Shown here piece by piece: positions 1,147 to 26,922 of a DNA stretch of 64,000 nucleotides. The position numbers and the translations under genes are program-made. The notes under the pieces were generated by a model. That model was given only the letters and a program-made list of their open reading frames with translations. It was not told the origin of the DNA and made no database searches. Numbering within the stretch: position 1 is the stretch's first letter; the number at the start of each line of letters is the position of its first letter. This stretch comes from an uncultured Candidatus Saccharibacteria bacterium. GTDB taxonomy: Bacteria; Patescibacteriota; Minisyncoccia; UBA6257; GWB1-50-10. Location of the stretch: assembly GCA_964449245.1 (NCBI GenBank), contig CAYUXY010000001.1, positions 66,838 to 130,837 on the forward strand, written 5' to 3'.

Positions 1147-2898
1147 TTAACGATTACGCAATCCTTTAATTGCAAGCATCTGTTCCGGATCGGTCGTGAT
1201 AATTTGATCCTCCGTATAAGATGGGATTATCTTAATTGCAATATGTTTTAAACCGGCAAAAAAGAGGCCCTCCCCTACGCCACACTCAACCAAAAACGCT
1301 TTCTCGCCCTCCGTGAGATTAAATGTCGCGCCGACCGACTCTATACTTGTCGTGGACTGCTTTAAAAGAATTTGCATAGAAGAATTGGATATTATTGGTT
1401 TCCCATAATTGGATTTTAAAAAGTCATCTATATCTTGCGTGATGCAAATAACGCCAAGATAATATTTGCGAGCTCGCTTTACGAGTCCAAAAAGGAAAGA
1501 CGCGCTATCTTCGTTTTTCATCATAAGCCACGCCTCGTCTACTACGAGAACACGTTGCCTTAATTCAGAACGAATGAGATTCCAAACAAAGTTCAGAATA
1601 ATATACATTGCTATAGGTCGAAGCTCTTCTTCGAGGTCTCTTATTGAAAAAACAATAAGTCTGTTTTTTATATCTACATTAGTCGGGACATTCGTAAATC
1701 CGGCGTAAGATCCACGAGTGAATTTTTCGAGTCTTTTCGCCATCATTTCACCTCCATTTGTATTTTCAAGAACGACCTGCAAATCTTCCAAGAGCGGAGG
1801 ATTTAGATTTTCCATAGTTCCAAAATTCTCGGCGGTTATGTCTCTCGATGCATATGTTTCAATTATTACTCTATCTAATATTGCGTCTTCTTCCGGCGTA
1901 ATACCCTTTAACATTATTTTTAATAATCCCGTGAGATTCAAAACGTGGGACTTAAAGACGTCTGCCGGATCGTCGCCTTCCGGAATAATTGGAATATCAA
2001 ACGGATTAATATGATTTTCTGATGTGAGGGATATTTTAAAGTAGCTTCCTCCTATAGCATCCGCTAAATTTTTATATTCATTTTCGGGGTCTATAACTAT
2101 GATATTTGTCCCGATCATAAGAGAGCGTAGTATTTGCAGTTTTGTGGAGTATGATTTTCCGGATCCTGATTTTGCGAAAATGACGGAGTTCGCATTTTCG
2201 AGTGAAAACCTGTCGAAAATAATCAGGCTGTTATTATGCATATTAATGCCGTACAAAATACCTTTCTCCGATGTTAAATCGGGAGAAACAAACGGGAAAA
2301 ACGATGACGCTGGACCGGAGTTTAACTGATTTAAAACCATAAGCTCGTCTCTCGCAATAGGTAGCACGGAATTTAATCCCTCCATTTGTCGGAATAATGC
2401 AGGCTTGATGTAAATTAATTTACTCTCAAGCAAGGACTCAATTTTATTTTTAAGTTTTTCTAGATTAACTAAATCAGTGCTGTATATTGTGATATAAGCT
2501 CCCACCTGAAAAAGCTTTTCTCTTGATTGTTGCAAGGCGTCGCGCAAAGATTCGACATCCTCGTGGGCTGTTTCAAGTATAGGGTCTCTAACTATCCCCT
2601 TTTCTTCTTTCTCGGACATCTCAGCTTCAATTTGCGCAACCTTTTTAGTGAGTTTTCTTAAGGTTGATCCCGTATCCATCGGGTGCATAAAAATGGAAAT
2701 ATCCATCATTTCCGCGAGATTTATAATAGGAGAAAACCATCCACTTGAAACAAAGCGCGGATATGCGGATATGAAAAAAGTTTTTGCATAATAATCCCCA
2801 ATCTTCAAATGATTTGAATCTATGGAGACGCCGGCCGGAGCAAGTATGCTGGGCATATCATTTTCCGGCGGAACCGCGCTGTTTAATGGTTGTTCCAT
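1147..2898 (-). CDS. virB4: VirB4/TrbE/CagE-family type IV secretion ATPase (PrgJ/TraE-like)
   Basis: Walker A FAKSGSGKSYSTK. Downstream motifs RLIVFSIRDLEE, VLVVDEAW and GVICITQDIDDF are typical of VirB4/TraC conjugative ATPases. 583 aa. Confidence 0.8.
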   Translation of the reverse strand: MEQPLNSAVPPENDMPSILAPAGVSIDSNHLKIGDYYAKTFFISAYPRFVSSGWFSPIINLAEMMDISIFMHPMDTGSTLRKLTKKVAQIEAEMSEKEEKGIVRDPILETAHEDVESLRDALQQSREKLFQVGAYITIYSTDLVNLEKLKNKIESLLESKLIYIKPALFRQMEGLNSVLPIARDELMVLNQLNSGPASSFFPFVSPDLTSEKGILYGINMHNNSLIIFDRFSLENANSVIFAKSGSGKSYSTKLQILRSLMIGTNIIVIDPENEYKNLADAIGGSYFKISLTSENHINPFDIPIIPEGDDPADVFKSHVLNLTGLLKIMLKGITPEEDAILDRVIIETYASRDITAENFGTMENLNPPLLEDLQVVLENTNGGEMMAKRLEKFTRGSYAGFTNVPTNVDIKNRLIVFSIRDLEEELRPIAMYIILNFVWNLIRSELRQRVLVVDEAWLMMKNEDSASFLFGLVKRARKYYLGVICITQDIDDFLKSNYGKPIISNSSMQILLKQSTTSIESVGATFNLTEGEKAFLVECGVGEGLFFAGLKHIAIKIIPSYTEDQIITTDPEQMLAIKGLRNR

Positions 2899-2903: not shown

Positions 2904-3551
2904 TTAAAATTTTTGCGTAGGAGAAACACCTTTTTTCTCTATTAATTGCGGATTATACATATTATAAAATAATTCGATAAGTTCCTCGTCTTCTAATGGA
3001 ATTGCGCGCAGGCCCATTTGACCTAAGCCGGACGTAACTTGGTCAACACGATGGCCGAGTTGTTCAATGTTGTCCTGCATTGGTGTTGTTGTAGAGTCGG
3101 ATGTTTTTTTCTGCAAGAAAGAAAAGACATTATTTTTCCCAGATAAGAAAATAGGCTCATATGGCACGACCGTGAAAAATGATTTGGTAACTATATCGTT
3201 TTGTTCGACAAACGAACGTATGAAATTGATGTATTCATCAATTTGTATTTTTAACAACTCATTCGGCTCTTTTTCATATAGGTCAGACATTTGTTTTAAA
3301 TAGGCGTCAATATTCACTTTTCTTGAGTGTATGAAAAATTGGACTGAAAAATCGAGTGTGTTTATAAAATCCTGAAAACCGGAAAGAATTAAATTTTGTT
3401 CGGCGTCCGATTTCAGGTCAAAATTTAACCCCCCGACTATAAGTATTCGGCACATTCCGCCATTTTTTAGAAAAACTACGCCGTCTTTTATTGATTTTAC
3501 GGCTACAAAATCCTGAGATGGTTTAGAAGGCGATTTTGCTGTTTGTTGCAT
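2904..3551 (-). CDS. hypothetical protein, possibly a detached VirB4 N-terminal domain
   Basis: 215-aa ORF overlaps the VirB4-like start by 7 nt. Its size plus the 583 aa of VirB4 roughly matches a full-length VirB4. Confidence 0.5.
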   Translation of the reverse strand: MQQTAKSPSKPSQDFVAVKSIKDGVVFLKNGGMCRILIVGGLNFDLKSDAEQNLILSGFQDFINTLDFSVQFFIHSRKVNIDAYLKQMSDLYEKEPNELLKIQIDEYINFIRSFVEQNDIVTKSFFTVVPYEPIFLSGKNNVFSFLQKKTSDSTTTPMQDNIEQLGHRVDQVTSGLGQMGLRAIPLEDEELIELFYNMYNPQLIEKKGVSPTQKF

Positions 3552-3592: not shown

Positions 3593-4114
3593 CTAACTAT
3601 AATCAACACGTTTCACATCTCTGCTTTCTCCGGTTGAAAATACTGCTTTTTGATAATTTTTGCCTTTAGTGTCGCTATTTACAGTGGTGGAAGATGTTTT
3701 CTTGCCGGTAGACGCGCTAAGCATAATAGATTGTAATTTTTTTTGTATACTCAAAAGACCACGAGATTCTTCTATGGATTTTTCTGCGTCTTCTACTTGG
3801 ACTTTTTGCCATATAAAAAGACGCGGTTTCATTAAGAAAGAAAAAAGGGATTTAATAACCGCAGGCGCATCCTGCCCGTTTATTTTGCCGAAGGCAAAGA
3901 GGACGCCAATAGCTTCAATAAAAAGAGAAAAAATAATCCAAAGGAAAAATTCGAATGTATAGTATGTCAGAAAACACAAAAACGAAGCTCCGGCTATGAA
4001 GAGAAATTGCTGCAACGTTAACGGCCCGACTATCTTGGGCTTTTTTTCTATAAATTGTGGAATTTGAAATGTTGCCACGTTATAACTATAGCTTATTAGA
4101 GAGTATTCTATCAA
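3593..4114 (-). CDS. PrgI-family (VirB3-like) small membrane protein
   Basis: The N-terminal motif KPKIVGPLTLQQFLFIAGASFLCFLTYY is followed by two TM helices. This matches the PrgI/TcpE family pattern (P..I.G.FT.RQ). Confidence 0.55.
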   Translation of the reverse strand: MIEYSLISYSYNVATFQIPQFIEKKPKIVGPLTLQQFLFIAGASFLCFLTYYTFEFFLWIIFSLFIEAIGVLFAFGKINGQDAPAVIKSLFSFLMKPRLFIWQKVQVEDAEKSIEESRGLLSIQKKLQSIMLSASTGKKTSSTTVNSDTKGKNYQKAVFSTGESRDVKRVDYS

Positions 4115-4145: not shown

Positions 4146-5663
4146 TTAATTTCGCAGATTTATTGTGTTTCCGTCAGTTTCCGGTCCGAGAGGCGCGCTT
4201 TTTTCTTCGGTAATTTTATTTTTTTCAACCCCCTTTTTGAAAGGAAAGAAAAATCCGGTGCCGGCGAGGTTGGGATCATTTTTCTGTTCGGTGGTTTTTT
4301 TAAGAGGTTGGTTTCCTTTTTTAACTTCCGTAGGTTGTTGTCTTTCCGCAATAAATTGGGAAATAGACGCCATAGCATTATTTATTTTTTCCCTGTCTTT
4401 GTTTTTATTTGTGATAATCTCGTGATTAATATTTATTTCTCTGGCATCTTTTTTATCTGTCGCAACGTCTTTAATTGGAGCGTTCGGGCGTGCTTGATTA
4501 TCGACAAATAACACATCTTTTTGAAACGGCGCAATGGGAGTTCTGAGTTCGCTATAGTGCACCGCCTTATCTTTTTTCTGTACTGTAGGAAATTCAATTG
4601 TCGCTTTCGTGGGATTTATAGTTTGTTTTTTACTCGCTTTTTTTGAAAACCAGAAGGATTGAGGAAATCCTTTTGATGGAGTTTGCTTGTCTCTGATATT
4701 TGGAGCAGTTTGCTTTTCTGTATGTAAAATAAGCGGCGCAGAATCGGCGCTAATATTTCCTGCATCTTGTTTAATTGAAACTCTTGATGGTGAAGTTGGG
4801 GCTGGTTGACCGAATATCTCGAGCGATATTCCTTCGTTTGGAGTGGTAACTGGCTTTTTTGTGCCCTCGAATATTTCTTTAATTTCCTGCAGGTGTTTCG
4901 AAAGGATTGAATCTTTTATTGATTTGGCAAAAAACTCCGCATCGTTGGAATCAAGCTTTGAAACAGTTTGTATTGTTTCAGGTAGATTATCGATAGAAAT
5001 TATCCCAAGTATTACGGCGCCAACGGTATGCCCTATTCCGCTTACTACATCATCCCCGAACTTTTTACCAGAGCATAAATTATATATTATATTTGCGGTG
5101 TCAAAAGAAAAAAATATTTTTTTAAGGTCTGCAGATAAAAATCCAAGCTGATAAAAAGGGTCTTTATCTTTTTTCTCCGATATTACGCTTGGGGATTCAA
5201 GCAGGTCGTTATTTATAATCTGTGAAGGACTGCTTAGAAAATATATATAAAGAGATGACGCAAATGTTTTAAGTTTAGATATTTTTTCAATCCCAGATTC
5301 TCCCGGTATAGAGTCGCTTATAAGTCCGAAGAAATATTTTGAAATAGATTTTTCGGTTCTTTCAAACACCCTTCCTGCCGACTCTCCGTCGGCGAAGTTT
5401 ACGAAAACTGCGGCAACGAGCGGTAAGAAAGAATCGCGCCACTCGTCTTCTGAAACGACTCCCCTTATAGCCGGCGCGCCTTCTATAATGCCTTTCCAGA
5501 ATATCAAACGAAGGCCGTCATTTGTGAAATATTCAAGTGTGTCTTGTAGGTTGAGCGCCGCGTCCAAAAATTTTTTATTCTGTAATGCCGTCCAAACACT
5601 TTCCTCCCAAATGGGAATCTGGATAATCATCTCTTCTAACGCTGTATTATTTTCTATATCCAT
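4146..5663 (-). CDS. hypothetical protein (505 aa, Lys/Pro/Thr-rich C-terminal half)
   Basis: Long ORF inside the T4SS-like operon. No recognisable catalytic motif and no TM. Confidence 0.5.
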   Translation of the reverse strand: MDIENNTALEEMIIQIPIWEESVWTALQNKKFLDAALNLQDTLEYFTNDGLRLIFWKGIIEGAPAIRGVVSEDEWRDSFLPLVAAVFVNFADGESAGRVFERTEKSISKYFFGLISDSIPGESGIEKISKLKTFASSLYIYFLSSPSQIINNDLLESPSVISEKKDKDPFYQLGFLSADLKKIFFSFDTANIIYNLCSGKKFGDDVVSGIGHTVGAVILGIISIDNLPETIQTVSKLDSNDAEFFAKSIKDSILSKHLQEIKEIFEGTKKPVTTPNEGISLEIFGQPAPTSPSRVSIKQDAGNISADSAPLILHTEKQTAPNIRDKQTPSKGFPQSFWFSKKASKKQTINPTKATIEFPTVQKKDKAVHYSELRTPIAPFQKDVLFVDNQARPNAPIKDVATDKKDAREININHEIITNKNKDREKINNAMASISQFIAERQQPTEVKKGNQPLKKTTEQKNDPNLAGTGFFFPFKKGVEKNKITEEKSAPLGPETDGNTINLRN

Positions 5664-5668
5664 ATTTT

Positions 5669-7714
5669 TTATTTTCCTGCCCTATGTTCAAATTTTCTGC
5701 GGCCTGTCTTTTTATCCTCGATAGTTGCAATATATCTGCGGGCTTTTTTATTTCTGTATGTCGCAATTCCATTTTCTCTTGTCACGATGTTTGCTATATC
5801 AAACGCGGATACCGGTGTAGCTAATAATTGAGCTCTCGCTTGGTCAAGCTGGTTGGTTAATCCATCTATCGTTGCTTGTGATGCATTTCTACTTCTGGCG
5901 CCGTTTAGGTGGCGCTCTATTCTTCCTACTCTTCTGCGCGCGACATCTCTATCTGTTGATTGTTGTAGAAATTCATTAATTGTTCCACCGGCAGCGGCAT
6001 TACCTCCAGCTAATCCGCTACGTACACCCGGTGGAAGATTTGCTACAGCATCCTCAAACATACTTTGTTTATCTTGAACTACAGCCTTACTTTCTATAGC
6101 TCTGTTTTTCCTTTCTTCGGCGGCATTTATAGCAACCTGATCGCCATTGGTTCTAGCGGCCAGAAGAGCTTTATTGGCTCTTGCAATTTCAACATCGGCC
6201 GAGACAAGCTCTTTTGCTATATTTTTTCCTTCTTCTGCGATGTTAGAAACTACAGCAGCTTTGCCTGCGTCGTCTAAATCGCGGTATCGCCCGGCCTGCT
6301 CGTCAATAGATTGTTTACCTAACTCATCTTTTTTCTTTTGAAAATCCGCCTTTGATTTTCCGGAGAATTTTGAAAGTATATTGCCAAGAGCATTGACTCC
6401 GGCGCCTCTCGCAATAGACTGGGACGCTCCGGGACTCAATTCATTTAGCCTATTTGCAAGCCCGGTGCCCCTAAGCCCCGGAATATTATTGAAATTAAAT
6501 CCCTTGTTGCCGGCATTTTGGAGCGCTCGTATCGCTTTTTGACCAGTGTCACTTCTAAGCGGTGCTGTTGCAGCGCGAGTCGCGGCCTCTTTCGATCGTT
6601 GTTGCATCCATTGCTTCCCCTTTCTGACATTGTCAGAGAGCATTTTATGCGCGCCGGCAGCGCCCGTGATAGACATCTGTTGGGCTACAATAAGGCCTCC
6701 AACAAGCAAACCGACTAATATAATCATTCGCACGCCCTGTTGCATAAGTGCCGCGACCATTCCGTTTTTAAAGAATGTGGTCGAGGAAACCGCCGCTGTA
6801 CCGGAGCTGACCTGTCTTATACTTACGAGCGCGAGATAGAAAAAGAAAGAAACGGCTGGAGCGAAAAATACCCACTGCATAAAGGTTTTCCACCATTTAG
6901 TAAACATTCCTTGCGCTGAAGGAATGACCCAGAAAAGCCACGATAGAGGTGCGAGAACGAGTAAAATAGAAAGATATATATATCGGATGAGCATCATAAA
7001 CGCGAATGCGAAGAGTACGAATGTCGCTATAAATATAAATATCACGACAAAAAACAAACTTGTTACTCCTAAAATCGCACTCGTCCCGAATTTTGTTAAT
7101 CCGCCGACCTCTTCTTCTGGGTCAACCGGTTCTGGTTCGGTGGGTTCCGTAAAGAGTGCTTGCGGATCGAAAGCTCCAGAGAGAGTTTGAGTAAATTCCG
7201 TAGACAAAAATCCAGCTCCGGAACTCGAACCGCTTTCTGTAACAGCTTTGAAAAAATATCGCGTGATAATATGAGAAAATCCTATAAGCGTGCCGGCTAT
7301 TGTAAGGCTGAAGTTAACGAGTATCGCGGCCCCGATTAATTTCGGAAGTAATTTTTTCGCGCCATAGCTCTGATATCTGAAAATTGTTGCAAGCGCTATA
7401 ACGATAATGATAAGTACAAAGCCGAGATTGGCGACATCGCGCGTGATTTCCCATCCGATACCAACGATAGCATTTGTCGGGTCGAGTACTTGAAAATTAA
7501 AATTCAAGGCGATGCTCACGAGATATCCCGCGAGGCTGAAGAGCAGAGACCCGATAAATTGCAGAAGATAAAGCACAACATAAACAACTACAGTAACAAC
7601 CATCGGACCTATCAATGCTATTGCATGCGCAGGTTCAGGTATGAAAAAGAAAACTGCGGATACGAGTAACGCTGCTATTAATAGATTCTTCGATTTGAGT
7701 TTTTTATTTTCCAT
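5669..7714 (-). CDS. polytopic membrane protein, VirB6/TrbL-like
   Basis: At least 8 hydrophobic helices sit in the N-terminal 330 aa. A long hydrophilic coiled C-terminal tail follows. Position is next to VirB4/PrgI-like genes. Confidence 0.55.
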   Translation of the reverse strand: MENKKLKSKNLLIAALLVSAVFFFIPEPAHAIALIGPMVVTVVVYVVLYLLQFIGSLLFSLAGYLVSIALNFNFQVLDPTNAIVGIGWEITRDVANLGFVLIIIVIALATIFRYQSYGAKKLLPKLIGAAILVNFSLTIAGTLIGFSHIITRYFFKAVTESGSSSGAGFLSTEFTQTLSGAFDPQALFTEPTEPEPVDPEEEVGGLTKFGTSAILGVTSLFFVVIFIFIATFVLFAFAFMMLIRYIYLSILLVLAPLSWLFWVIPSAQGMFTKWWKTFMQWVFFAPAVSFFFYLALVSIRQVSSGTAAVSSTTFFKNGMVAALMQQGVRMIILVGLLVGGLIVAQQMSITGAAGAHKMLSDNVRKGKQWMQQRSKEAATRAATAPLRSDTGQKAIRALQNAGNKGFNFNNIPGLRGTGLANRLNELSPGASQSIARGAGVNALGNILSKFSGKSKADFQKKKDELGKQSIDEQAGRYRDLDDAGKAAVVSNIAEEGKNIAKELVSADVEIARANKALLAARTNGDQVAINAAEERKNRAIESKAVVQDKQSMFEDAVANLPPGVRSGLAGGNAAAGGTINEFLQQSTDRDVARRRVGRIERHLNGARSRNASQATIDGLTNQLDQARAQLLATPVSAFDIANIVTRENGIATYRNKKARRYIATIEDKKTGRRKFEHRAGK

Positions 7715-9424
7715 TTATTCTCCCATATTGCACCTGTCCCTGTTTTTTTCGGCTACGCTTACAAGCGCCGTCACGTCAGAAAGTGTGCCGTCGATTATGG
7801 CTGTTTCTGTGTTGATGTCGCTCTGTATTGTAAAAAGCATAGGGCTAAGAAGCGATATATCATAAGCTTCTCCCTGTAATTTTGTCACAAGAGTAGATGT
7901 ATCGTCTCTGAGTTTTTTAAGCACTTCTATTTGTTCTGGAATCCACACATCTCGTCTCGATTCAGATTGTATAAGCGTCTGTGTTGCCGAGAATGATTCC
8001 GGATCCATAACATATGAGCTGTAAGCGGAGAGACATTGTGTAAGTCCTCTTATCGCGCCATTTTGCAGGTTTGCATTATCGAGCGCAAGTATTAATTTTT
8101 TATTAGTTGTTATAACCGAATTAAGTGTAGTTGACGCTTGATTAATCAAATTCAAAAAACCACTTGCCTGTTGTCTCATTTGACCTCTTGCTCCAGTTTC
8201 CGCACCCTCTCTTATAGTTTCCCCCTTTACCGCACTGCTGTATGAACTCTTAACATTATTAATTGCAGTTATGCGATCTGTTTCGGATTTTGTTGTGAGT
8301 CCGATTAATCCACTTACCGCGTTTTTCGTCATTCTGTTTATCGCGGCATCTAAAATAGCGCTTGCGTATGCCTCAAGTTCGTCAGCGCTTAGAATATAAT
8401 CAATGTCAGCATTTATAGCTTTCGAAACAGTATCGCCGACCGTTTTGGATGGAGTAACAGCTTTCGATCCTAATGTCTTGTCGCATTCCCAATGCGCGGT
8501 TACGCCCTCGGGTATGTTCGCAGGAAGTGCCGGAGGATCCGTTGGTTTTCGCGCCGGATCAGAAAATTCGTAAATTCGTCCGCCATCGCTTCCCTGAACT
8601 GCCCGTCCAAGCTCATCAAGCAAAACCCATGCGGTACAGACTTCCTGCGGTAAATATCCTCCACCGCCTGCAATTTTAGCTTGGGCTATTTTATCCTGCC
8701 TCTCGGCCTCGTTTATAGTTTCTTCCATCGCAAGTAGATAAATGCCGTGTCGGTTGTTTTCTGGCGCGGCGGCAGATTGTATTCCGATCCACCCGCCATT
8801 TTTAAAGTTGTCTTTAAATGCGGCAATATTACCTACTACATCGTCAAGCGTACACGATGCGGCTTTGTGAAATTTGGGCGGAGCCTGAAGATTTATTTCT
8901 ATTCGGGCTTTTACCGGACTGTCGCAAAAATCACCGAGGCCTATTTCACGGATTGTTTCGCCGACTCCGGCGTTTACCGCGTCATCAAAGAATTCTCCAA
9001 AATTTTCAACGAATTTTGGTTGTGTCCCGTCCTGTATCCATGTGATAGTTTGATCTACGATTTGATCAAGTAATTGTTTTTTTAATACCTCCCGCGCCAT
9101 TCTTACGGCAATCTCTTTTACAGAAAGCAAACATCGTTCTATGGAAGATTTTTTAACCTCCTTCTGTGTCTCTGAATCGTCGACCGGAACCTTGCCCACC
9201 CCAAGTCCAACGGCGCTTTTAGCCGAATCAAGTGCGCCATCTATTACACCCATAATTTCATCTCCTGCAATCATTTTTATAAACCCACCTACGCAGGCGG
9301 ATGCAAGTTCAGTAACAATTTGAGCCTCCGCTTTTTTGGTATTTATAGGCAAAACAACTCCCATAGCAATCGTGGATAATATGAGAATGTAGGTCGTTAA
9401 TTTTTTTATATTTTTTTGATTCAT
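7715..9424 (-). CDS. secreted hypothetical protein (569 aa)
   Basis: N-terminal signal peptide (LILSTIAMGVVLPINTKKAEA). Stop abuts the VirB6-like start and the start overlaps the next ORF by 4 nt. Confidence 0.55.
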   Translation of the reverse strand: MNQKNIKKLTTYILILSTIAMGVVLPINTKKAEAQIVTELASACVGGFIKMIAGDEIMGVIDGALDSAKSAVGLGVGKVPVDDSETQKEVKKSSIERCLLSVKEIAVRMAREVLKKQLLDQIVDQTITWIQDGTQPKFVENFGEFFDDAVNAGVGETIREIGLGDFCDSPVKARIEINLQAPPKFHKAASCTLDDVVGNIAAFKDNFKNGGWIGIQSAAAPENNRHGIYLLAMEETINEAERQDKIAQAKIAGGGGYLPQEVCTAWVLLDELGRAVQGSDGGRIYEFSDPARKPTDPPALPANIPEGVTAHWECDKTLGSKAVTPSKTVGDTVSKAINADIDYILSADELEAYASAILDAAINRMTKNAVSGLIGLTTKSETDRITAINNVKSSYSSAVKGETIREGAETGARGQMRQQASGFLNLINQASTTLNSVITTNKKLILALDNANLQNGAIRGLTQCLSAYSSYVMDPESFSATQTLIQSESRRDVWIPEQIEVLKKLRDDTSTLVTKLQGEAYDISLLSPMLFTIQSDINTETAIIDGTLSDVTALVSVAEKNRDRCNMGE

Positions 9425-10251
9425 TTTATTGTTGAATCGAGTTTTTCTTTAAGAAGTCTCGCAATCGTTTCCTCGTCGTTATTTAATTCGTTCAAAGTAT
9501 CAATTGCGGCAAGCGCCATAATTGGATCTGTTCCGATATTTAAAACGGCTTTTGCTATGGCAAGTTTTTTCTGCTGATAATTCAGGAGCGATAAATGAAA
9601 ACTTTTCCATGAGGACGGCGTTGGTATTGCAAGAAGTGACGTAATAAGTGAATTGATGCCATCGGAATATTCCGTGAGAAATGAAGGATCGTTATTTTGT
9701 ACAAGTTGATAGACGGCTCGCGTAATGTCCGCGTCAGTTTCCGAAGAAATATTTGCATTTGCGGAACGTATGGCGGCAAGATATTCAATCACCGCTTTTT
9801 CTGACGAATCGTCAATCTGCCTTATGTCACTTTCTTTTGTAGCTTCTATTTGGATACCTTTTCCTATCGCCTCTTCGATGATTGTTTCGATTGTCGCGCC
9901 GGAAGGTATGGTAACCATTTTTTCTCCATTTACATTTAACGGCCCATCCGGATTTTTTTGTACAAGCGTCAATGCATATTGGTTAAGAAATGTCTGCGTG
10001 AGGTTAGTCTCGGGCTGACCGCTATTATTCGAAACTTCCTGAGCGTCTTTCTGATAATCTATAGATGATTTTACATTGTTTTCAAGCCCGACATTCAATG
10101 CAAATCCGCCATTTCCGTGTTTTGGAGCAATGATTAAATATGATGCAAATACGCCCACAATAATGATGGCAATTGCTATTTTTTTTCTTTTAAATAGGTG
10201 CATATTGTGATACGCGGAAAAAACACTTACTCGAATATTTGTGCGTCGCAA
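9421..10251 (-). CDS. bitopic membrane protein (VirB8-like topology, speculative)
   Basis: Single N-terminal TM (IAIAIIIVGVFASYLIIAP) followed by a ~240-aa extracytoplasmic domain. Overlaps the upstream gene by 4 nt. Confidence 0.45.
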   Translation of the reverse strand: MRRTNIRVSVFSAYHNMHLFKRKKIAIAIIIVGVFASYLIIAPKHGNGGFALNVGLENNVKSSIDYQKDAQEVSNNSGQPETNLTQTFLNQYALTLVQKNPDGPLNVNGEKMVTIPSGATIETIIEEAIGKGIQIEATKESDIRQIDDSSEKAVIEYLAAIRSANANISSETDADITRAVYQLVQNNDPSFLTEYSDGINSLITSLLAIPTPSSWKSFHLSLLNYQQKKLAIAKAVLNIGTDPIMALAAIDTLNELNNDEETIARLLKEKLDSTIK

Positions 10252-18856: not shown

Positions 18857-18877
18857 AATAACCAAAATTCTACAAAT

Positions 18878-18908
18878 CAAAAACCCGCCTTTATAAAAGC
18901 GGGTTTTT
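18878..18908 (-). terminator. rho-independent terminator hairpin downstream of the pilin-like array
   Basis: 8-bp stem aaacccgc/gcgggttt with an A/T-rich loop and T-run on the minus strand. Confidence 0.5.
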
Positions 18909-18913
18909 GATTG

Positions 18914-19231
18914 TTATGCAAGTGCAAATTTTACTAACTCAATGATTGATTTCGCAAGTATTGCGACAGCAACCGCAATAACAGTTCCAAACAGTTGCTG
19001 TCTCGCAGTTTTCACCCTCGCTTCATCACCTCCGCTAAAAAGAAAATTATATGCGGAAAGGATGATAAATATAACTGCTAGAGCGAGAAGTATGCCGTAC
19101 ATCCAATTGCCTATTTTATCCATCAACTCCAATACCTTTGTTGGCGTGTTAATGGAGCTTTCTGCTTGGGCAATATAAGGTAAAATTAATAGTCCTATAA
19201 TTGTCCAAAAATTAGTGAAGACTTTTTTCAT
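18914..19231 (-). CDS. VirB2/TrbC-like pilin candidate (paralog 1)
   Basis: Signal peptide (..YIAQA|ES) followed by TM helix, short charged loop SGGDEARVKTARQQ and second TM helix. 105 aa. Confidence 0.55.
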   Translation of the reverse strand: MKKVFTNFWTIIGLLILPYIAQAESSINTPTKVLELMDKIGNWMYGILLALAVIFIILSAYNFLFSGGDEARVKTARQQLFGTVIAVAVAILAKSIIELVKFALA

Positions 19232-19240
19232 AGCCCAATT

Positions 19241-19594
19241 TTATCTAACTATGGAACTAATGACAATTACGATACCTTGCGCAAGAAGGCCAATTGCGAC
19301 TGCGACAATCGCGTATATCAAATAATTTTTTGCTTTTGTAACAGACTTCTCTTCCCCGCCTGATGTGAGGTAGTAGAACGCTGCCACAATTAAGAATATT
19401 ACGGCAAGAGCCAATAAAATTCCTAACATGTATTTTGCAATCAATTGAACTCTCGTCATTAATGAGCTGTAGTTTGTAATGTCAGACTCTAGGGTCGGTT
19501 CGGTGCCACTAAATGGATCGGTAATTTGCCCGATTGCAAATGCAGGAGCAAGAAGTATTGCTGCGAGTATTCCTGCTGTAATAATTTTTTTCAT
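19241..19594 (-). CDS. VirB2/TrbC-like pilin candidate (paralog 2)
   Basis: Same architecture. The motif MLGILLALAVIFLIV...TSGGEEKSVTKAKN is shared with paralog 1. Confidence 0.55.
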   Translation of the reverse strand: MKKIITAGILAAILLAPAFAIGQITDPFSGTEPTLESDITNYSSLMTRVQLIAKYMLGILLALAVIFLIVAAFYYLTSGGEEKSVTKAKNYLIYAIVAVAIGLLAQGIVIVISSIVR

Positions 19595-19643
19595 TTTTAA
19601 TAATTAATATAATACGACCTTTTCTTTTTGTGACGCATCGGAA

Positions 19644-19973
19644 TTATTCAAGAACTCCTTCAATAATGCCAACGATGCCCCATCCGATAAAAATTATACC
19701 ATAGCCCAAAGCGGCGTACAAAATGGTATTTTTGCCCGTCGTAAATTTTTTTGGGTCGCCTTGAGCGGTCATTATCTGAAATGCTCCGATTATAATCATT
19801 ATGGTTGCTATCGGCGCGCCGGCAGCTATGAGCCAGCTTATAATAGTCTGAATAAGCTCGAAAACATCGCCGGAGTTCAACGGATTTTGGAGTTCTATTG
19901 CTGCGCCTCTTGCGACAAACGGAACAGCCGTTAATGTGACACAAAGCGCCGTAACGCGTTTAAAAAATTTCAT
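19644..19973 (-). CDS. VirB2/TrbC-like pilin candidate (paralog 3)
   Basis: Signal peptide followed by TM, loop TAQGDPKKFTTGKN and second TM. 109 aa. Confidence 0.5.
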   Translation of the reverse strand: MKFFKRVTALCVTLTAVPFVARGAAIELQNPLNSGDVFELIQTIISWLIAAGAPIATIMIIIGAFQIMTAQGDPKKFTTGKNTILYAALGYGIIFIGWGIVGIIEGVLE

Positions 19974-20009
19974 ATAAATATTATACCAATTTTTACTTGA
20001 TAATGAATA

Positions 20010-20492
20010 TTATTCGCACTCTATCCTATTCCATATCCGCAAATCCCTCGTTTCGCCAGTTGTCGTACGGAAGCTCGAATTCGCGATAAGTTTAACGATC
20101 GTATTTATCATGAGCCATGATGCAAGTCCGATAGCGAGGCCGACCGCGGCGTTTGTCATAAAAGCGCGGGCGGTTTTCAGTCTCGATTCGGATCCGCCGG
20201 AAGTCATCATAATTATTGCCCCTATGATTATAAATATTACCGCAACTGGGATTGCGACTTGAAAAAGAATGGCAATCGCGTTTTGAACCACTATAAGCGC
20301 GTGGCAAAATGTGCAGGCTCCCGAAACGTTGCACGTAGACGTTGAAGAATAAAGCAGAGTTCCGCTTGTAAATGAGTTCGTCGTTTCCGTGCCTTCCCAG
20401 AGATTGAAAGAAAGCGCACTTGTCGTAAATGGCAATGCAAAAAATATAAAAGCTACGACAATCAAAGCCGTTTTCTTAAAAAATTTGTTCAT
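20010..20492 (-). CDS. VirB2/TrbC-like pilin candidate (paralog 4, with Cys-rich insert)
   Basis: Signal peptide, then Cys-rich segment CNVSGACTFC, TM, loop TSGGSESRLKTARA and second TM. 160 aa. Overlaps the SBP gene stop by 17 nt. Confidence 0.5.
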   Translation of the reverse strand: MNKFFKKTALIVVAFIFFALPFTTSALSFNLWEGTETTNSFTSGTLLYSSTSTCNVSGACTFCHALIVVQNAIAILFQVAIPVAVIFIIIGAIIMMTSGGSESRLKTARAFMTNAAVGLAIGLASWLMINTIVKLIANSSFRTTTGETRDLRIWNRIECE

Positions 20493-21804
20493 CGAATATT
20501 TTATTTATGTTGTCTTCGGCTTGTTTTATGGCAACGCGTATATCCGCGCCACGCAAGGTTATCGCGTCTATCATATCCGAAAATGATTTTGATATGGCTT
20601 CTCTGTCCGGTTGAGCCCATGATCTTGCGATTAACGCCTGACGCGCTTCAGCGCTGAAGTCGGGCGAGTTGCCGACCTTCCCGATTAATGAACGCAACGC
20701 GGGAGAATTACCCGTTTTTGTCATATACGATTCCGCGGTATTTTTTTGTGTCGTCATGGAAACGATTAAATTCCACGCAACCAATGGTAATTTGCTTTGT
20801 CTTGATACCGTATATCCGTAATAACGGGCATACGCCGCGCGACAGTCATATTCGTTCTGGCAAGTCGCTTCCGCCGGATATGGAATAGGAGCTATGCCGA
20901 CATTCAGCCATTGATTTTTGGCATGAATATTTTGAATCGTTTGTTTGTAATCGAAAATCATCGCAACTGAACCGTTGGCAAACGCATCGAGCGAGTTTGG
21001 CATAGAGCTATTCCACGTATAAGCGTCGTTTCGTGGGTTGGAAAATCCGGAATAAAAACGTACCGCCTCCTCGCCTTCAGAAGACGCAAAAGTCGCTTCG
21101 CTGTTTTTATCGTCCGTCATTTGAGTGCCGGATTGCATCATAAGGAGCTCAACTAAATTGCTCGCATTATTTATGTTGCTTCCCGATCCTCCGATTGCCG
21201 CTCCTGCGCGTATAAGCCTATCTGATGAATCGGTTTTTACGAGACGAGGAATAATTAATTTGAATTCTTCCCATGTTACCGGCACCTCCGCAATGCCCTC
21301 GGCATCAAATATGTCTTTGTTGTAGAGCATTACGAGAGTGTTTATAGAAAGGGGCAGGCCGAATATGTAACCGTCATTTACAAAATCTTTTTCAACGATG
21401 CGCGGGAAAAGATTTTGAATTTGCACAAGAGACAGGGTGTTTGTTGAAAGCGGATATATTTTATTTTTGTCCTTGATGACGCTCGCATTGTCTATCATAA
21501 AAATGTCCGGTCCTTGATTGGTCGCGAGCGCTTCCAAAAGAGCTTTTTTGTAAGTTGCTTCGTTCGTGAAACTTCGGAAATTAACTTTTACATTCGGATA
21601 TGATGCGCGGAAACTCGCAATTGCCGTGGCATAATCTTCTTCTGTATCGTATAAAACCCAAACGGACATATCCCCCTGAACGGCAGGAGCGCCGGTATTA
21701 TTTTTTTTGAGTCCGGGAATAACGCCTGTAAAAATTAAAACAATCAACAGAACGATTATCCCTATTATGGAGAAGACAATAGTTTTTGGATTGAGGCTGT
21801 TCAT
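20476..21804 (-). CDS. extracellular solute-binding protein (ABC transporter SBP family 1-like), N-terminally membrane-anchored
   Basis: N-terminal TM followed by a ~410-aa domain of size and layout typical of sugar-type SBPs. Confidence 0.6.
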   Translation of the reverse strand: MNSLNPKTIVFSIIGIIVLLIVLIFTGVIPGLKKNNTGAPAVQGDMSVWVLYDTEEDYATAIASFRASYPNVKVNFRSFTNEATYKKALLEALATNQGPDIFMIDNASVIKDKNKIYPLSTNTLSLVQIQNLFPRIVEKDFVNDGYIFGLPLSINTLVMLYNKDIFDAEGIAEVPVTWEEFKLIIPRLVKTDSSDRLIRAGAAIGGSGSNINNASNLVELLMMQSGTQMTDDKNSEATFASSEGEEAVRFYSGFSNPRNDAYTWNSSMPNSLDAFANGSVAMIFDYKQTIQNIHAKNQWLNVGIAPIPYPAEATCQNEYDCRAAYARYYGYTVSRQSKLPLVAWNLIVSMTTQKNTAESYMTKTGNSPALRSLIGKVGNSPDFSAEARQALIARSWAQPDREAISKSFSDMIDAITLRGADIRVAIKQAEDNINKIFDEQIF

Positions 21805-21822: not shown

Positions 21823-24294
21823 CTACAAGCACACAACTCCCATCAGCTTATCCCCGTCATCGAGATTCATAATTCGCACTCCCTGCGTCGCTCGCCCTGA
21901 AGTTCTGACGTCGCTTATTTTTGTGCGCAACGCCTGACCCTTTTTTGAGAAGGCAAGAATTTCTTCCGCATCAAGCACTACGTAGGTAGATATAACTACG
22001 CCAGTCTTATCGGTAATCTTTGCGGTCTTGATTCCAGAGCCTCCCCTTTTCTGTGTTTTGTATTCGGCAATGGGAGTTTGTTTTGCAAACCCCTTGTCCA
22101 TCACGGCGAGCAATCTCGTATCTTTCATAGCCGTACCTCCTTTTATTATATCAAGTCCGGCGACGGAATCTCCCTTTTTAAGCGCTATTCCCTTTACTCC
22201 GGCGGCGGACCTTCCCATAGGTCTTATGTCTTTTTCTTTAAACCTTATAGCCTGTCCGTTGGACGTGGAAAGGACTATCTCGTCATTGCCGGATGATATT
22301 TGCACCCAGCGAAGCAAATCGTTTTTGAGTTTTAACGCAATAATTCCGGTTCTTCGAACGTTTGCGAAATCCTTGAGGGCTGTTTTTTTGATGATGCCGT
22401 TCTTTGTTGCCATTACTAAATATTGTTTTATGTCCTCCGAGTCAGGGTACGCGATTATTGCGCTCACATTTTCATCTTGCGGAATTTCGAGATAGTTATG
22501 AATTAATTTTCCTTTTGATGTGCGCGAAGCCGCCGGAATTTCGTACACTTTTGTTTGAAACACTTTGCCTTTGTCGGTAAAGAACAAAATATTATCGTGC
22601 GTACTCGAGGAAATGATCTGGTCTATAAAATCCTCTTCTTTCAGGTCGAACCCTATTAACCCTTTTCCTCCGCGTCTTTGCGCGCGAAAATCGGTTGGCG
22701 GCAATCTCTTTATGTATCCGCCGAGAGTAAATGTGATAACCGCTTCTTCGTTAGGAATCAGATCTTCCTCTCTGAATTCTTTTAAGCTCGCCGCCACAAC
22801 TTTTGTGCGTCTTCCTTCCGGAAAATTCTTTTTTAATGTTTCGAGCTCGTCGTTTATGATATCAACCATTCTCTTTGGATTTTTGAGGATGAGTGTGAGC
22901 TCTTTTATTAATTTCCTTTTTTCTTCGAGCTCGTCTTCGAGTTTTTGTCTTTCGAGCGCGGCGAGGGTTTGAAGTTTCATTTCCAAAATAGCCTGCGCTT
23001 GTATGGGAGTAAGTTTGAAATTTTTAATGAGGTTTACGGCTGCGGCGTCCTTATCTTTTGATTTTTTGATTGTCGCGATAATTTTATCAATCACATCAAG
23101 CGCTTTGACGAGCCCTTCGAGTATGTGTGCACGCTCCTCGGCTTTTTTGAGATCGAATTCGGTGCGTCTGCGCACGATTGTTTTCCTGTGGGCTATATAT
23201 ATGAGAAGTATTTCTCGTAGCGAAAGTATTTGCGGTTGGATACCGTCGACCAACGCAAGCATGTTGAAATAAAAGTTTTTCTGAAGCTCCGTATACTGAT
23301 ACAGCTGATTTAAAATCTTTTGAGGGGATGCATCGTTTTTAAGTTCGACAACAATGCGCAAACCTTCCCTGTCTGATTCATCGCGCAAGTCTTTTATGCC
23401 CTCTATTCTTTTTTCTTGGACAAGCTCGGCGATTTTTTCAAGTAGGGTGGATTTGTTAACTTGATACGGAATCTCGGTGATGATGATATGAAAGCTCCCG
23501 CTTTTCTTTTCTTCTATTTGGGCCACAGCGCGCATAGTTACAGCACCCTTGCCCGTTGAATAAGCGTCCTCAACAGCTTTTTTGTCGTAAATGATTCCTC
23601 CTGTTGGAAAATCAGGACCCGGAATAAATTTCATCAAATCTTTTGTTCCGGCATCGGGGAATGAATTCAAATGGATTATCGCATCAGCGAGTTCGCATAA
23701 ATTGTGCGGAGGAATGTTTGTCGCCATTCCTACGGCTATACCTACTGTTCCGTTTAATAGGAGGTTCGGCAATTTTGCCGGCAGGAATTTTGGCTCCGTA
23801 CGCGAATTGTCATAGTTGGGATCCCAGTCAACGGTTTCTTTTTCTATGTCTATGATGAGCTCCTCGGAAATTTTAGAAAGTCTGGCTTCCGTATAACGCA
23901 TGGCGGCTGGCGCATCTCCGTCAATGGAGCCCCAGTTTCCTTGCCCTTGTACTAATGGATAACGGAGAGAAAAGTCTTGTGCCATGCGCGCAATGGAATC
24001 GTAAATCGCGGAATCTCCGTGAGGATGGTAGTGAGCCATAACTCCTCCGACAACGTTTGCGGACTTTCTAAATTTCGTAGTGTGCTTTAATCCCGCTTCC
24101 CACATACTCCAGAGGATTCGTCTTTGTACGGGTTTCAGTCCGTCTCTTGCATCGGGAAGCGCGCGCGCAACAATAACAGACATCGCATAATTTAAATACG
24201 AGTCTTTTAGCTCTTGCGTAATTTCTTGTGGTCTTATTTTTCCTCCTACTGGAGTTGGCTCTTCTTCAATTTTTTTATCAGTTTCTTTTTTCAT
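21823..24294 (-). CDS. gyrA: DNA gyrase subunit A
   Basis: Carries [26 protein letters not shown] and the active-site Tyr region. The C-terminal beta-pinwheel contains a GyrA box QRRGGKG, which argues for GyrA rather than ParC. Confidence 0.9.
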
Positions 24295-24309
24295 ATCGGT
24301 GGTCCTGTC

Positions 24310-24702
24310 TTATGGTAGCGGAGTCGGGGGTATGTTTTCAAGGCTTTGAGTCGAAAACTCAGGAGACTCGCCTTCTATATTAATGACATTTGGTTCCGTA
24401 ATTTGTTCTTTTATCACTCCTATATTTTGATCAATGCTTTTTTTCAGCACCTCGTATCGCTTGCCGAGGTCGTTCGAAAGATTGTCTATTCCACGTTTGA
24501 ACGTTTCACTAAATGAGTTTTCGTCTTTTTGTTTATTAGAGGAAAAAAATAGAGGTTCGGCGGTTATATTATTGATATAAATTATCCAAAGTCCGATTAC
24601 TAACGCCATTATGACTATCGTACTCCCTATAAACCATCTTCGCTTTGTACTCTCGTCCGACCTGCGAAGTTTATTTAAATATTGTTTAAATTGCAGACTC
24701 AT
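24310..24702 (-). CDS. hypothetical membrane protein
   Basis: 130 aa with a single TM (STIVIMALVIGLWIIYI). Confidence 0.45.
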   Translation of the reverse strand: MSLQFKQYLNKLRRSDESTKRRWFIGSTIVIMALVIGLWIIYINNITAEPLFFSSNKQKDENSFSETFKRGIDNLSNDLGKRYEVLKKSIDQNIGVIKEQITEPNVINIEGESPEFSTQSLENIPPTPLP

Positions 24703-24729
24703 ATTAGATTGTAACGCTAAACCAAAAAA

Positions 24730-25311: not shown

Positions 25312-25439
25312 ATATGTGTGAGTATATGCGATTTTCGCCTTTTTTTCAATTTATTAAGCGTTTTCAGAAGAATGCAATGTATGCCGGTTGTAGAGGAAGA
25401 TAACAGGGAAATGTGGAATACGGCACAGAAGAGTTTATT

Positions 25440-25700
25440 CGGGCATTTGATCGTTCAGTAATTTATTCGAAATTCCCGCCCGAACGACTGATTCGTTCAG
25501 TCGGGCAGGCGAAACAGGACGAGGTCAAAACCCCGATGCTTTGATCGGGGCTCGCGACCCCCAAAGGGGCGTCGGAGTTAGATAAATCGAAATTTGCGTT
25601 ACTTTCTACTTTTATCTTTCGTCTTTTAACTTATTCCCTACATACTATATACAATATTCTATATACCTTTTGCTTTTCGCTACTGTTAATGGTTGTTTTT
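25440..25700. repeat. intergenic repeat element, copy 2 (core 25527-25584)
   Basis: A 58-nt core near-identical to 17714-17771 (one mismatch). The 17-mer tacaatattctatatac recurs downstream, as in copy 1. Confidence 0.7.
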
Positions 25701-25718
25701 TTGTTAATTTACGCAGGG

Positions 25719-26906: not shown

Positions 26907-26922
26907 TCTTGAATTACATACC

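What the first reader, a model, noticed from the sequence alone, without database searches (positions are those of the whole stretch)
18914..20492. Tandem array of four divergent VirB2/TrbC-like pilin paralogs, separate from the T4SS-like cluster and adjacent to xerD-tRNA-Leu
Four consecutive small ORFs (105, 117, 109 and 160 aa) share one architecture. Each has a signal-peptidase-I-type signal peptide, a hydrophobic helix, a short charged loop with the motif SGG(D/E)E...K(T/A)(A/K) and a second hydrophobic helix. This is the layout of conjugative or T4SS pilins (VirB2/TrbC/TraA).

The paralogs are strongly diverged outside the core. One carries a Cys-rich insert (CNVSGACTFC). This is suggestive of antigenic or host-range diversification, or of multiple pilin isoforms.

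They are co-directional with gyrA and an ABC SBP gene and overlap the SBP stop. A terminator hairpin and a XerC/D-type recombinase plus tRNA-Leu follow immediately downstream. The array lies about 8 kb from the VirB4 cluster.
Basis: partly seen in the sequence, partly recalled or inferred. Interest (0 to 1): 0.65.

Follow-up and report, generated by a model that had tools for sequence, protein, structure and literature searches.

The report
Patescibacterial VirB2-like pilin gene array
Four neighbouring small genes encode diverged copies of a type IV secretion pilin, a gene arrangement already described in many ultra-small Patescibacteria, so the finding is real but not new.

Summary
Four tandem minus-strand ORFs (18914-20492; 105, 117, 109 and 160 aa) share one layout: signal peptide, helix, short basic loop, helix. 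They are mutually homologous at 21-40% identity.

Three ORFs pass the gathering score of Pfam PF18895 (T4SS_pilin). The fourth falls below it (21.0 against 26.6 bits), but all 77 of its relatives match PF18895. A family profile aligns in register with genuine plasmid VirB2/TrbC pilins (hhalign E 4.6e-6; shuffled controls much weaker).

The genome is a Paceibacteria-type Patescibacterium near Jorgensenbacteria. Such arrays are published: 441 arrays of 2-11 pilin genes in 383 assemblies (PMC12102498), and essential in Southlakia (PMC10633639).

The antigenic-variation idea is not supported:
- The four paralog types keep the same order in related genomes.
- In a close relative, mature pilin D is 82/82 identical at dS about 1.07.
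- No gene-conversion tracts link the paralogs.

xerD and tRNA-Leu are conserved chromosomal neighbours, not an island border.

Two modest extras:
- A membrane-anchored sugar-type solute-binding protein gene directly precedes the array in 14 of the 16 related array loci checked.
- The first pilin type carries a conserved 3+1 cysteine pattern.

Interest is low to moderate.

The parts
20010..20492 (-). Pilin A (160 aa). It is the first and longest pilin. Layout: signal peptide, a beta-hairpin head carrying three Cys (C54, C60, C63), the two-helix hairpin, and a C-terminal tail ending W..I.C (C159).
   Evidence: - ORF.
- PF18895 at 21.0 bits, below the 26.6 cut-off. All 77 of 77 relatives match PF18895.
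- AlphaFold2 pLDDT 81 with E36-53, H62-97 and H102-140.
- Positional orthologs in L003, L005 and L006 at 36-44% identity.
- 64 of 77 relatives carry a 3+0+1 Cys pattern.
19644..19973 (-). Pilin B (109 aa), with a conserved NPL motif just after the signal peptide and an AQGD loop.
   Evidence: - PF18895 at 42.3 bits; PF04956 TrbC at 23.4 bits, below the 27.9 cut-off.
- AlphaFold2 pLDDT 82.6 with H37-68 and H74-108.
- Orthologs at 55-62% identity occupy the second position of related arrays.
19241..19594 (-). Pilin C (117 aa), with an SGGEE loop.
   Evidence: - PF18895 at 32.3 bits.
- Orthologs at 44-46% identity.
- Hairpin dN/dS 0.02 against L049.
18914..19231 (-). Pilin D (105 aa), the last gene of the array, with an SGGDE loop.
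   Evidence: - PF18895 at 38.7 bits.
- The mature part (residues 24-105) is 82/82 identical to L049 at dS 1.07. All 11 substitutions lie in the signal peptide.
18875..18912 (-). Intrinsic-terminator-like hairpin followed by a T-run, directly after pilin D.
   Evidence: - 19-nt inverted repeat arms, 95% complementary.
- RNA fold -23.9 kcal/mol, z -6.5.
20476..21804 (-). N-terminally membrane-anchored solute-binding protein (SBP, family 1/8). Its stop overlaps the pilin A start by 17 nt. It is a conserved upstream partner of the array.
   Evidence: - PF13416 at 93.5 bits and PF01547 at 75 bits.
- Nearest solved relatives are sugar or oligosaccharide SBPs, best E 2e-11.
- It directly precedes pilin arrays in L001, L003-L012, L047, L048 and L050.
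1147..2898 (-). VirB4-type ATPase (C-terminal ATPase part) of the chromosomal T4SS. It is the presumed motor that would act on the pilins.
   Evidence: - NCBIfam CD1110-family VirB4 at 368.6 bits, cut-off 325.
- PF19044 TraG P-loop at 98 bits.
2904..3551 (-). TrsD-like protein corresponding to the VirB4 N-terminal domain, encoded as a separate ORF.
   Evidence: - NCBIfam TrsD and VirB4 N-terminal matches, both sub-threshold.
- A stop codon separates it from the ATPase ORF.
3593..4114 (-). PrgI/VirB3-like protein.
   Evidence: PF12666 PrgI at 25.4 bits, just under the 27 cut-off.
4146..10251 (-). Four large uncharacterised ORFs of the T4SS-like cluster: 4146-5663, 5669-7714, 7715-9424 and 9421-10251. 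ORF 5669-7714 has a weak VirB6-like (CD3337/EF1877) match.
   Evidence: - No Pfam hits.
- NCBIfam CD3337_EF1877 at E 0.002, sub-threshold.

Best explanation
The four ORFs are Sec-exported, signal-peptidase-I-processed VirB2-like pilins of family PF18895. They belong to the chromosomal, monoderm-type (MPF-FATA-like) type IV secretion system of a Paceibacteria-class Patescibacterium. The machine genes (TrsD/VirB4, PrgI/VirB3 and a VirB6-like candidate) lie 8.7 kb away.

Shown here:
- family membership;
- remote homology to genuine VirB2;
- the hairpin architecture with a basic loop;
- co-orientation with a single strong terminator after the last gene;
- conservation of four distinct paralog types in a fixed order, under strong purifying selection.

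Inferred mechanism:
1. Each pilin inserts into the membrane as a helical hairpin, with the basic loop inside and both termini outside.
2. The VirB4 ATPase complex extracts the pilins.
3. They assemble into a pilus or conduit that contacts the host cell.

The four types are most likely specialised subunits of one structure, for example a major pilin plus minor or tip pilins, with the Cys-stapled type A as a candidate cap. They are unlikely to be interchangeable antigenic variants. The array is co-transcribed with, or at least tightly coupled to, a membrane-anchored sugar-type solute-binding protein.
For: - **Pfam.** PF18895 above cut-off for three of four ORFs; the fourth has E 3.5e-4. All relatives match PF18895: 76 of 76 and 77 of 77. 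Of these, 27 and 9 also match PF04956 TrbC.
- **Homology to VirB2.** hhalign to eight annotated VirB2/TrbC pilins gives 86.5% probability, E 4.6e-6 and score 37.4. Reversed control scored 11.6; block-shuffled controls scored 13.4 +/- 3.1. ATP-synthase c and lambda holin controls were negative.
- **Structure.** AlphaFold2 predicts hairpins.
- **Machine genes.** A VirB4/TrsD/PrgI cluster is in the same window.
- **Conserved paralog types.** Positional orthology and conserved order hold across L003, L005, L006, L007-L012 and L047.
- **Selection.** Purifying selection: pD dN = 0 at dS 1.07.
- **Transcription unit.** Terminator after pD.
- **Literature.** Published Patescibacterial VirB2 arrays, essential in S. 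epibionticum.
Against: - No T4SS pilus has been seen in any Patescibacterium, and monoderm T4SSs normally lack pilins.
- Foldseek against the PDB gave nothing significant. The best hit had E 0.45, and an archaeal conjugation pilin appeared only at E about 3.
- Family profiles find no solved pilin by sequence.
- pA is below the Pfam cut-off, and its hhalign match to VirB2 has only 32.8% probability.
- The array is not inside the T4SS cluster.
- Nothing here shows expression, processing or assembly.
Confidence: 0.7

Rival explanations
1. Antigenic or host-range variation. Under this reading the paralogs are interchangeable variants of one pilin, diversified under positive selection or recombination so that the cell can switch or broaden host specificity. 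Models are the VirB2 paralogs of Bartonella and Anaplasma.
For: - Paralogs are only 21-40% identical.
- Pilins diverge faster between genera than their neighbours do: 44-62% against 72-80% identity to L003.
- The published survey speculates along these lines.
Against: - Each paralog has its own ortholog at the same array position in distant genomes.
- Mature pD is invariant at dS about 1.07, and the pC hairpin has dN/dS 0.02, lower than xerD.
- No shared DNA tract longer than 21 nt exists between paralogs.
- There are no silent cassettes or inversion sites. xerD is a conserved housekeeping neighbour.
Confidence: 0.08
2. A membrane-resident role without a pilus. Under this reading the hairpin proteins stay in the cytoplasmic membrane. 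They would be channel or stator-like subunits of the T4SS, or a membrane partner of the co-encoded solute-binding protein, and would never polymerise into an extracellular filament.
For: - Monoderm T4SSs work without pili, and no Patescibacterial T4SS pilus has been imaged.
- The SBP gene precedes the array in 14 of the 16 related array loci checked, with no ABC permease next to it.
- The fold search cannot separate pilins from other helical hairpins.
Against: - Sequence-profile homology is specifically to VirB2/TrbC pilins and not to control hairpins.
- Extracellular decorations fit surface exposure better than a buried membrane subunit: a Cys-rich head on type A, and C-terminal Cys knots on some relatives.
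- Arrays lacking the SBP exist (L051, L052).
Confidence: 0.17
3. An unrelated small two-TM family, such as holins or DUF membrane proteins, or secreted toxin-like subunits as first proposed for the TM7x array.
For: - The architecture is simple and hydrophobic, so chance similarity is a real concern.
- McLean et al. 2020 compared such arrays to pertussis-toxin subunits.
Against: - No holin or other family reaches significance in Pfam or NCBIfam. The only recurring hits are PF18895, PF04956 and the Mycoplasma ICE pilin-like family.
- Composition-preserving controls score far below the VirB2 match.
- Two predicted TM helices are incompatible with a soluble toxin subunit.
Confidence: 0.03

Closest known systems
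Patescibacterial VirB2-like pilin arrays (Quinonero-Coronel et al. 2025, PMC12102498; Wang et al. 2023, PMC10633639; McLean et al. 2020, PMC7427843)
   Same: - Tandem PF18895 pilin genes with low mutual identity. The published mean is 25% with a maximum of 54%; here it is 21-40%.
- Chromosomal location near a relaxase-less MPF-FATA-like T4SS with TrsD, VirB4, PrgI and ksgA in the vicinity.
- Signal peptides on each copy.
   Different: - Here the array lies outside the T4SS cluster, about 14 genes from virB4. In Southlakia and TM7x it lies inside the cluster.
- It is preceded by a solute-binding protein gene, which those papers do not mention.
- The published survey found arrays most abundant in Microgenomatia and Saccharimonadia; this one is of Paceibacteria type.
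VirB2/TrbC conjugative pilins of Gram-negative MPF-T systems (Pfam PF04956; A. tumefaciens T-pilin, RP4 TrbC)
   Same: - Signal peptide, two hydrophobic helices and a short loop.
- Profile-profile match in register over the mature protein.
- Encoded near virB3 and virB4 homologues.
   Different: - Below the PF04956 gathering score.
- The loop is about 7 residues longer and rich in K/R.
- Four paralogs instead of one gene.
- No VirB1, VirB5 or TraF-type cyclase is nearby.
- The host is a monoderm.
- Type A has cysteines that could tie its N- and C-terminal ends, where T-pilin and TrbC are joined head-to-tail by a peptide bond. That comparison rests on established knowledge of those pilins and is an inference.
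Mbov_0395 family pilin-like conjugal transfer protein of Mycoplasma ICEs (NCBIfam NF045849)
   Same: A small two-helix pilin-like protein of a wall-less or monoderm T4SS. All of pB, pC and pD give sub-threshold matches over the full model.
   Different: - Scores of 19.7-30.2 bits fall under the 40-bit cut-off.
- It is ICE-borne and single-copy, not a chromosomal array.
Multi-copy VirB2 paralogs of Bartonella and Anaplasma phagocytophilum T4SSs
   Same: Tandem, sequence-divergent VirB2 paralogs next to a non-conjugative T4SS.
   Different: Those are interpreted as variation or immune-evasion devices. Here the paralogs are fixed, ordered and under strong purifying selection.

Membership tests
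Pfam PF18895 T4SS_pilin | Whole-protein score at or above the gathering score of 26.6 bits | tested here: met
   pB 42.3, pD 38.7 and pC 32.3 bits. The same families are precomputed for the identical proteins.
Pfam PF18895 T4SS_pilin (pilin A only) | Whole-protein score at or above the gathering score of 26.6 bits | tested here: inconclusive
   pA scores 21.0 bits (E 3.5e-4), below the cut-off. All 77 of 77 relatives in its alignment match PF18895 at E <= 1e-3. pA also detects pB, pC and pD with phmmer at E 2e-8 to 7e-7.
Pfam PF04956 TrbC/VirB2 pilin | Whole-protein score at or above the gathering score of 27.9 bits | tested here: not met
   Only pB matches, at 23.4 bits. 27 of 76 and 9 of 77 relatives match at E <= 1e-3, best 4.8e-9.
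VirB2 superfamily (remote homology) | Profile-profile similarity to bona fide VirB2/TrbC over the mature hairpin, above composition-matched controls | tested here: met
   The pB/pC/pD family against eight annotated plasmid VirB2/TrbC gives 86.5% probability, E 4.6e-6 and score 37.4. The reversed control scores 11.6. Sixty block-shuffles give 13.4 +/- 3.1 with a maximum of 23.5. The type A family is weaker at 32.8% probability and E 4.6e-4.
VirB2-type pilin | Architecture: cleavable signal peptide, two hydrophobic helices, short polar or basic connecting loop | tested here: met
   Supported by hydropathy segments, the alignment and AlphaFold2 secondary structure. The substitution pattern places the pD cleavage at A23|E24. 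No dedicated signal-peptide predictor was available.
VirB2-type pilin | Three-dimensional similarity to solved conjugative pilins | tested here: inconclusive
VirB2-type pilin | Genetic association with a VirB4-containing T4SS | tested here: met
   VirB4 (CD1110 family, 368.6 bits), a TrsD-like ORF and a PrgI-like ORF lie at 1147-4114. The cluster ends 8.7 kb from the array.
VirB2-type pilin | Polymerises into an extracellular pilus; processed or cyclised | not testable with these tools
   Requires microscopy, biochemistry or mass spectrometry.
Patescibacterial VirB2 array (as defined in PMC12102498) | Two or more VirB2-like genes in tandem in a Patescibacterial genome that has VirB4, with low identity between copies | tested here: met
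   Four adjacent genes at 21-40% identity. VirB4 is in the window. Closest relatives are Jorgensen-, Brenner-, Harrison- and Colwellbacteria MAGs.
Antigenic-variation pilin locus | Rapid change between close strains, recombination tracts between copies | tested here: not met
   pD dN = 0 at dS 1.07, and pC hairpin dN/dS 0.02. No repeat longer than 21 nt links the paralogs. Positional orthology is conserved.
Genomic island at tRNA/integrase | Variable presence, atypical composition, integrase specific to the element | tested here: not met
   The same gyrA-SBP-pilins-xerD-rpsO-NYN-pnp order occurs in L003, L004, L005, L006 and L047. GC of 39-45% matches the surroundings.

The most novel reading that the evidence does not exclude
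The conserved module of a membrane-anchored sugar-type solute-binding protein plus four or five ordered VirB2-like pilins is a nutrient-capture device. The SBP would dock on or cap a T4SS pilus, possibly through the Cys-stapled type A pilin, and hand host-derived glycans or other small molecules to the T4SS conduit in place of an ABC permease. That would give the first concrete component for the proposed 'uptake from the host' role of the Patescibacterial T4SS.
Probability: 0.08. Interest if true: 0.8.

Novelty: new member of a known kind. Interest (0 to 1): 0.28.

Why it matters
VirB2-like pilin arrays are one of the few handles on how ultra-small, host-dependent Patescibacteria interact with their hosts. 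In the one genetically tractable species they are essential. This window adds no new kind of system.

The comparative data do sharpen the picture for the Paceibacteria lineage:
- The paralogs are old, ordered and strongly constrained. This argues for a multi-subunit structure rather than antigenic variation.
- They travel with an orphan solute-binding protein gene, which gives a testable lead for the proposed uptake function.

Tried and rejected
- **Sequence search of the PDB.** Family profiles against PDB sequences found no pilin.
- **Single-sequence hhalign.** One Ti VirB2 sequence against the family profile was weak (E 0.035). Only the eight-sequence VirB2 profile gave a clear match, so reversed and block-shuffled controls were added.
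- **Homolog search with pA alone.** It found only one relative because of the word index. An alignment query was needed.
- **R388 and RP4 accessions.** They were not in the plasmid collection.
- **Promoter scan.** Not above the shuffled expectation. The simple terminator scan also missed the real hairpin after pD.
- **The 428-aa ORF before the L052 array.** Tested as a possible divergent SBP; it is not one. It is a pilin-like protein with a large N-terminal domain.
- **Lipoprotein (signal peptidase II) processing.** Rejected by inspection: no lipobox cysteine sits at the end of any signal peptide.
- **Genomic-island reading of xerD and tRNA-Leu.** Rejected because of conserved synteny.
- **Source identification.** The NCBI accession of the source contig could not be recovered.
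Full report
**Observation**

Four minus-strand ORFs lie head to tail:
- pA, 20010-20492, 160 aa
- pB, 19644-19973, 109 aa
- pC, 19241-19594, 117 aa
- pD, 18914-19231, 105 aa

Each begins with a basic N-terminus and a hydrophobic signal-peptide core ending in a small-residue motif. Two long hydrophobic segments follow, joined by a short loop rich in G, D/E and K/R. The four find each other with phmmer at E 2e-15 to 8e-6. A profile built from them finds nothing else among the 376 window ORFs of at least 40 aa. Pairwise identities are 21-40%.

- pA overlaps the stop of a solute-binding protein (SBP) gene by 17 nt.
- gyrA lies upstream on the same strand.
- A strong hairpin with a T-run follows pD (-23.9 kcal/mol, z -6.5).
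- tRNA-Leu and a convergent XerC/D-type recombinase come next.
- A T4SS-like cluster ends 8.7 kb away.

The quoted loop motif fits only pC and pD exactly.

**What the proteins are**

Pfam places pB, pD and pC in PF18895 T4SS_pilin above the gathering score: 42.3, 38.7 and 32.3 bits against a cut-off of 26.6. pA scores 21.0 bits, below it. pB also touches PF04956 TrbC/VirB2, at 23.4 bits against a cut-off of 27.9. NCBIfam gives only sub-threshold matches, to the Mycoplasma ICE pilin-like family.

All 76 relatives of pB/pC/pD and all 77 relatives of pA match PF18895. Of these, 27 and 9 also match PF04956.

For a test independent of Pfam's family boundaries, I collected eight annotated VirB2/TrbC genes from MPF-T conjugative plasmids. 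I compared their profile with the window's family profile using hhalign.
- The pB/pC/pD family matched over the whole mature hairpin, in register: 86.5% probability, E 4.6e-6, score 37.4.
- The reversed VirB2 alignment scored 11.6. Sixty block-shuffled versions scored 13.4 +/- 3.1, with a maximum of 23.5.
- An ATP-synthase c subunit and the lambda S holin did not match.
- The pA family matched VirB2 more weakly: 32.8% probability, E 4.6e-4.

AlphaFold2 predicts a signal-peptide helix plus a helix-loop-helix hairpin for pB (pLDDT 82.6). For pA it predicts the same preceded by a beta-hairpin head (pLDDT 81.1).

Fold comparison was uninformative. No PDB match reached significance, and an archaeal conjugation pilin appeared only among many generic hairpins.

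**Genomic and taxonomic context**

The window is ordinary chromosome. It carries pnp, rpsO, gyrA, ftsH, recA, ftsK, nusA, several tRNA synthetases and a proton-pumping pyrophosphatase.

The T4SS-like cluster contains:
- a CD1110-family VirB4 ATPase (368.6 bits, cut-off 325);
- a separate TrsD-like N-terminal ORF;
- a PrgI/VirB3-like protein;
- a weak VirB6-like candidate;
- ksgA next to the cluster.

This matches the published description of the Patescibacterial T4SS. No relaxase or coupling protein was seen. The FtsK in the window carries a gamma domain and is the chromosomal one.

The closest relatives of the pilins and their neighbours come from MAGs labelled Candidatus Jorgensenbacteria, Brennerbacteria, Harrisonbacteria and Colwellbacteria. 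The published dataset places Jorgensenbacteria in class Paceibacteria.

**Comparison with related loci**

The block Lactamase_B_3-gyrA-SBP-pilins-(variable genes)-xerD-rpsO-NYN-pnp recurs in L003, L004, L005, L006 and L047, with three to five pilin genes. The other gyrA-linked loci keep only part of the block:
- L048 keeps the part from Lactamase_B_3 through xerD.
- L050 lacks xerD.
- L007 and L009 keep gyrA-SBP-pilins with the rpsO, NYN and pnp genes upstream instead.

xerD and tRNA-Leu are therefore conserved neighbours, not the edge of a mobile element. Base composition is also unremarkable.

Each window pilin has its best match at the same array position in the other genomes:
- pA with the first gene, 36-44% identity;
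- pB with the second, 55-62%;
- pC with the third, 44-46%;
- pD with the last, 47-55%.

The same pattern holds in more distant arrays. The first gene is the longest and carries cysteines, and the second carries an NPL motif after its signal peptide.

The pilins diverge faster between genera than GyrA, XerD, S15 or PNPase: 44-62% against 72-80% identity to L003. At short range they are very constrained. Against contig L049 (83% nucleotide identity):
- Mature pD is 82/82 identical at dS 1.07. All 11 replacements fall in the signal peptide.
- The pC hairpin has dN/dS 0.02.
- xerD has dN/dS 0.044.

No DNA repeat longer than 21 nt connects the paralogs.

Together these results argue against antigenic or cassette-type variation. 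They favour four old, non-redundant subunit types.

**Mechanism**

Shown:
- pilin-family membership;
- hairpin architecture with a basic loop;
- linkage to a VirB4 machine;
- a shared orientation with one terminator;
- fixed paralog order under purifying selection.

Inferred from established knowledge of VirB2-type pilins:
1. Sec export and signal-peptidase I cleavage.
2. Insertion with the loop in the cytoplasm and both ends outside.
3. Extraction by the VirB4 complex.
4. Assembly into a pilus or conduit towards the host cell.

I rate the family assignment at about 0.9 and the full pilus mechanism at about 0.6. No Patescibacterial T4SS pilus has been observed, and monoderm T4SSs normally lack pilins.

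**What is already known**

- McLean et al. 2020 noted arrays of four to six small Sec-signal proteins beside the Saccharibacterial T4SS.
- Wang et al. 2023 identified them as pilin subunits and showed that they are essential in Southlakia epibionticum.
- Quinonero-Coronel et al. 2025 catalogued 441 arrays of 2-11 VirB2-like genes in 383 Patescibacterial assemblies. Mean identity between copies was 25% and the maximum 54%.
- A 2025 review highlights the six 'structurally conserved but sequence-divergent' pilins.

The present array fits that description and is a further member of a known kind.

**Side observations that may be new**

First, an N-terminally anchored family-1/8 solute-binding protein gene directly precedes the pilin array in many loci. 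Its nearest solved relatives are sugar or oligosaccharide binders.
- It precedes the array in every locus found through the SBP (L007-L012, 29-39% identity).
- It precedes the array in eight of ten loci found through the pilins (L001, L003-L006, L047, L048, L050). The exceptions are L051 and L052.
- Two of the SBP-derived loci, L008 and L011, have a different upstream neighbour, an NTP_transferase gene instead of gyrA.
- No ABC permease lies nearby in the window.
- The two key papers do not mention this linkage. A full-text search for the combination of terms found nothing.

Second, the type A pilin family has a conserved cysteine pattern.
- 64 of 77 members have three Cys on the N-terminal outer side, none in the hairpin and one at the C-terminal tail.
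- 65 of 77 end in W..[IVLM].C.
- Both ends lie on the same side of the membrane, so one disulfide would have to tie the C-terminal tail to the N-terminal head. This is an inference.

Third, in L005 the type A gene has an in-frame stop just upstream of its ATG, so it has no signal peptide. The L006 type A protein starts at the same point and likewise lacks one.

**Verdict**

The diversification idea is not supported. The array is an instance of a published phenomenon, so interest is low to moderate. The SBP linkage is the one lead worth a wider survey.

Noticed in passing
window 20476-21804 (-); L003-L012, L047, L048, L050: A membrane-anchored family-1/8 solute-binding protein gene sits directly upstream of the pilin array. 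Here it overlaps pilin A by 17 nt. This holds in 14 of the 16 related array loci checked, including two (L008, L011) with a different upstream neighbour (an NTP_transferase gene). No ABC permease is adjacent. The T4SS papers read do not mention it.
   Followed up: partly
window 20010-20492 (-); alignment A3: The type A pilin family has a conserved 3+0+1 cysteine pattern in 64 of 77 members and a C-terminal W..[IVLM].C motif in 65 of 77. This implies a disulfide linking the C-terminal tail to the N-terminal head on the outer face.
   Followed up: partly
L005 4336-4344; L006 6621-6983: In two Jorgensenbacteria MAGs the type A pilin lacks a signal peptide and starts at M(A/S)(V/I)IANIWEG. In L005 an in-frame stop lies just upstream of the ATG. 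The window's ortholog has a classical signal peptide. How the N-terminal head would be exported there is unclear.
   Followed up: partly
window 1147-3551 (-): VirB4 is encoded as two ORFs separated by a stop codon: a TrsD-like N-terminal part (2904-3551) and a CD1110-family ATPase (1147-2898). This resembles the TrsD/TrsE arrangement of Gram-positive systems and is not an obvious sequencing error.
   Followed up: partly
window 4146-10251 (-) and 13459-14583 (-): Five large ORFs (505, 681, 569, 276 and 374 aa) have no Pfam or NCBIfam assignment. The only hint is a weak VirB6-like match in 5669-7714. The 374-aa ORF next to pnp is conserved in position in L003-L006.
   Followed up: no
window about 22000-28000: Cumulative GC skew reaches its minimum near 24-25 kb. 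Gene orientation changes from mostly minus (1-25 kb) to mostly plus (beyond about 36 kb). This suggests a replication-origin-like switch close to the pilin array and T4SS cluster, as reported for other Patescibacteria. No dnaA was identified among the ORFs scanned.
   Followed up: no
L052 2255-4447: In a 1.24-Mb scaffold, an array of six pilins beside TrbL/VirB6 is preceded by two large proteins (282 and 428 aa). Their C-termini carry a sub-threshold PF18895 hairpin, so they look like pilin-anchored proteins with large extracellular domains. They occupy the position that type A occupies here.
   Followed up: partly
P0025, P0027, P0031, P0034, P0036, P0039, P0049 (relatives; e.g. L006 8001-8435): In five-gene arrays, an extra pilin type carries a C-terminal extension with four cysteines (a small knot-like domain). 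It is absent from the window's four-gene array.
   Followed up: no
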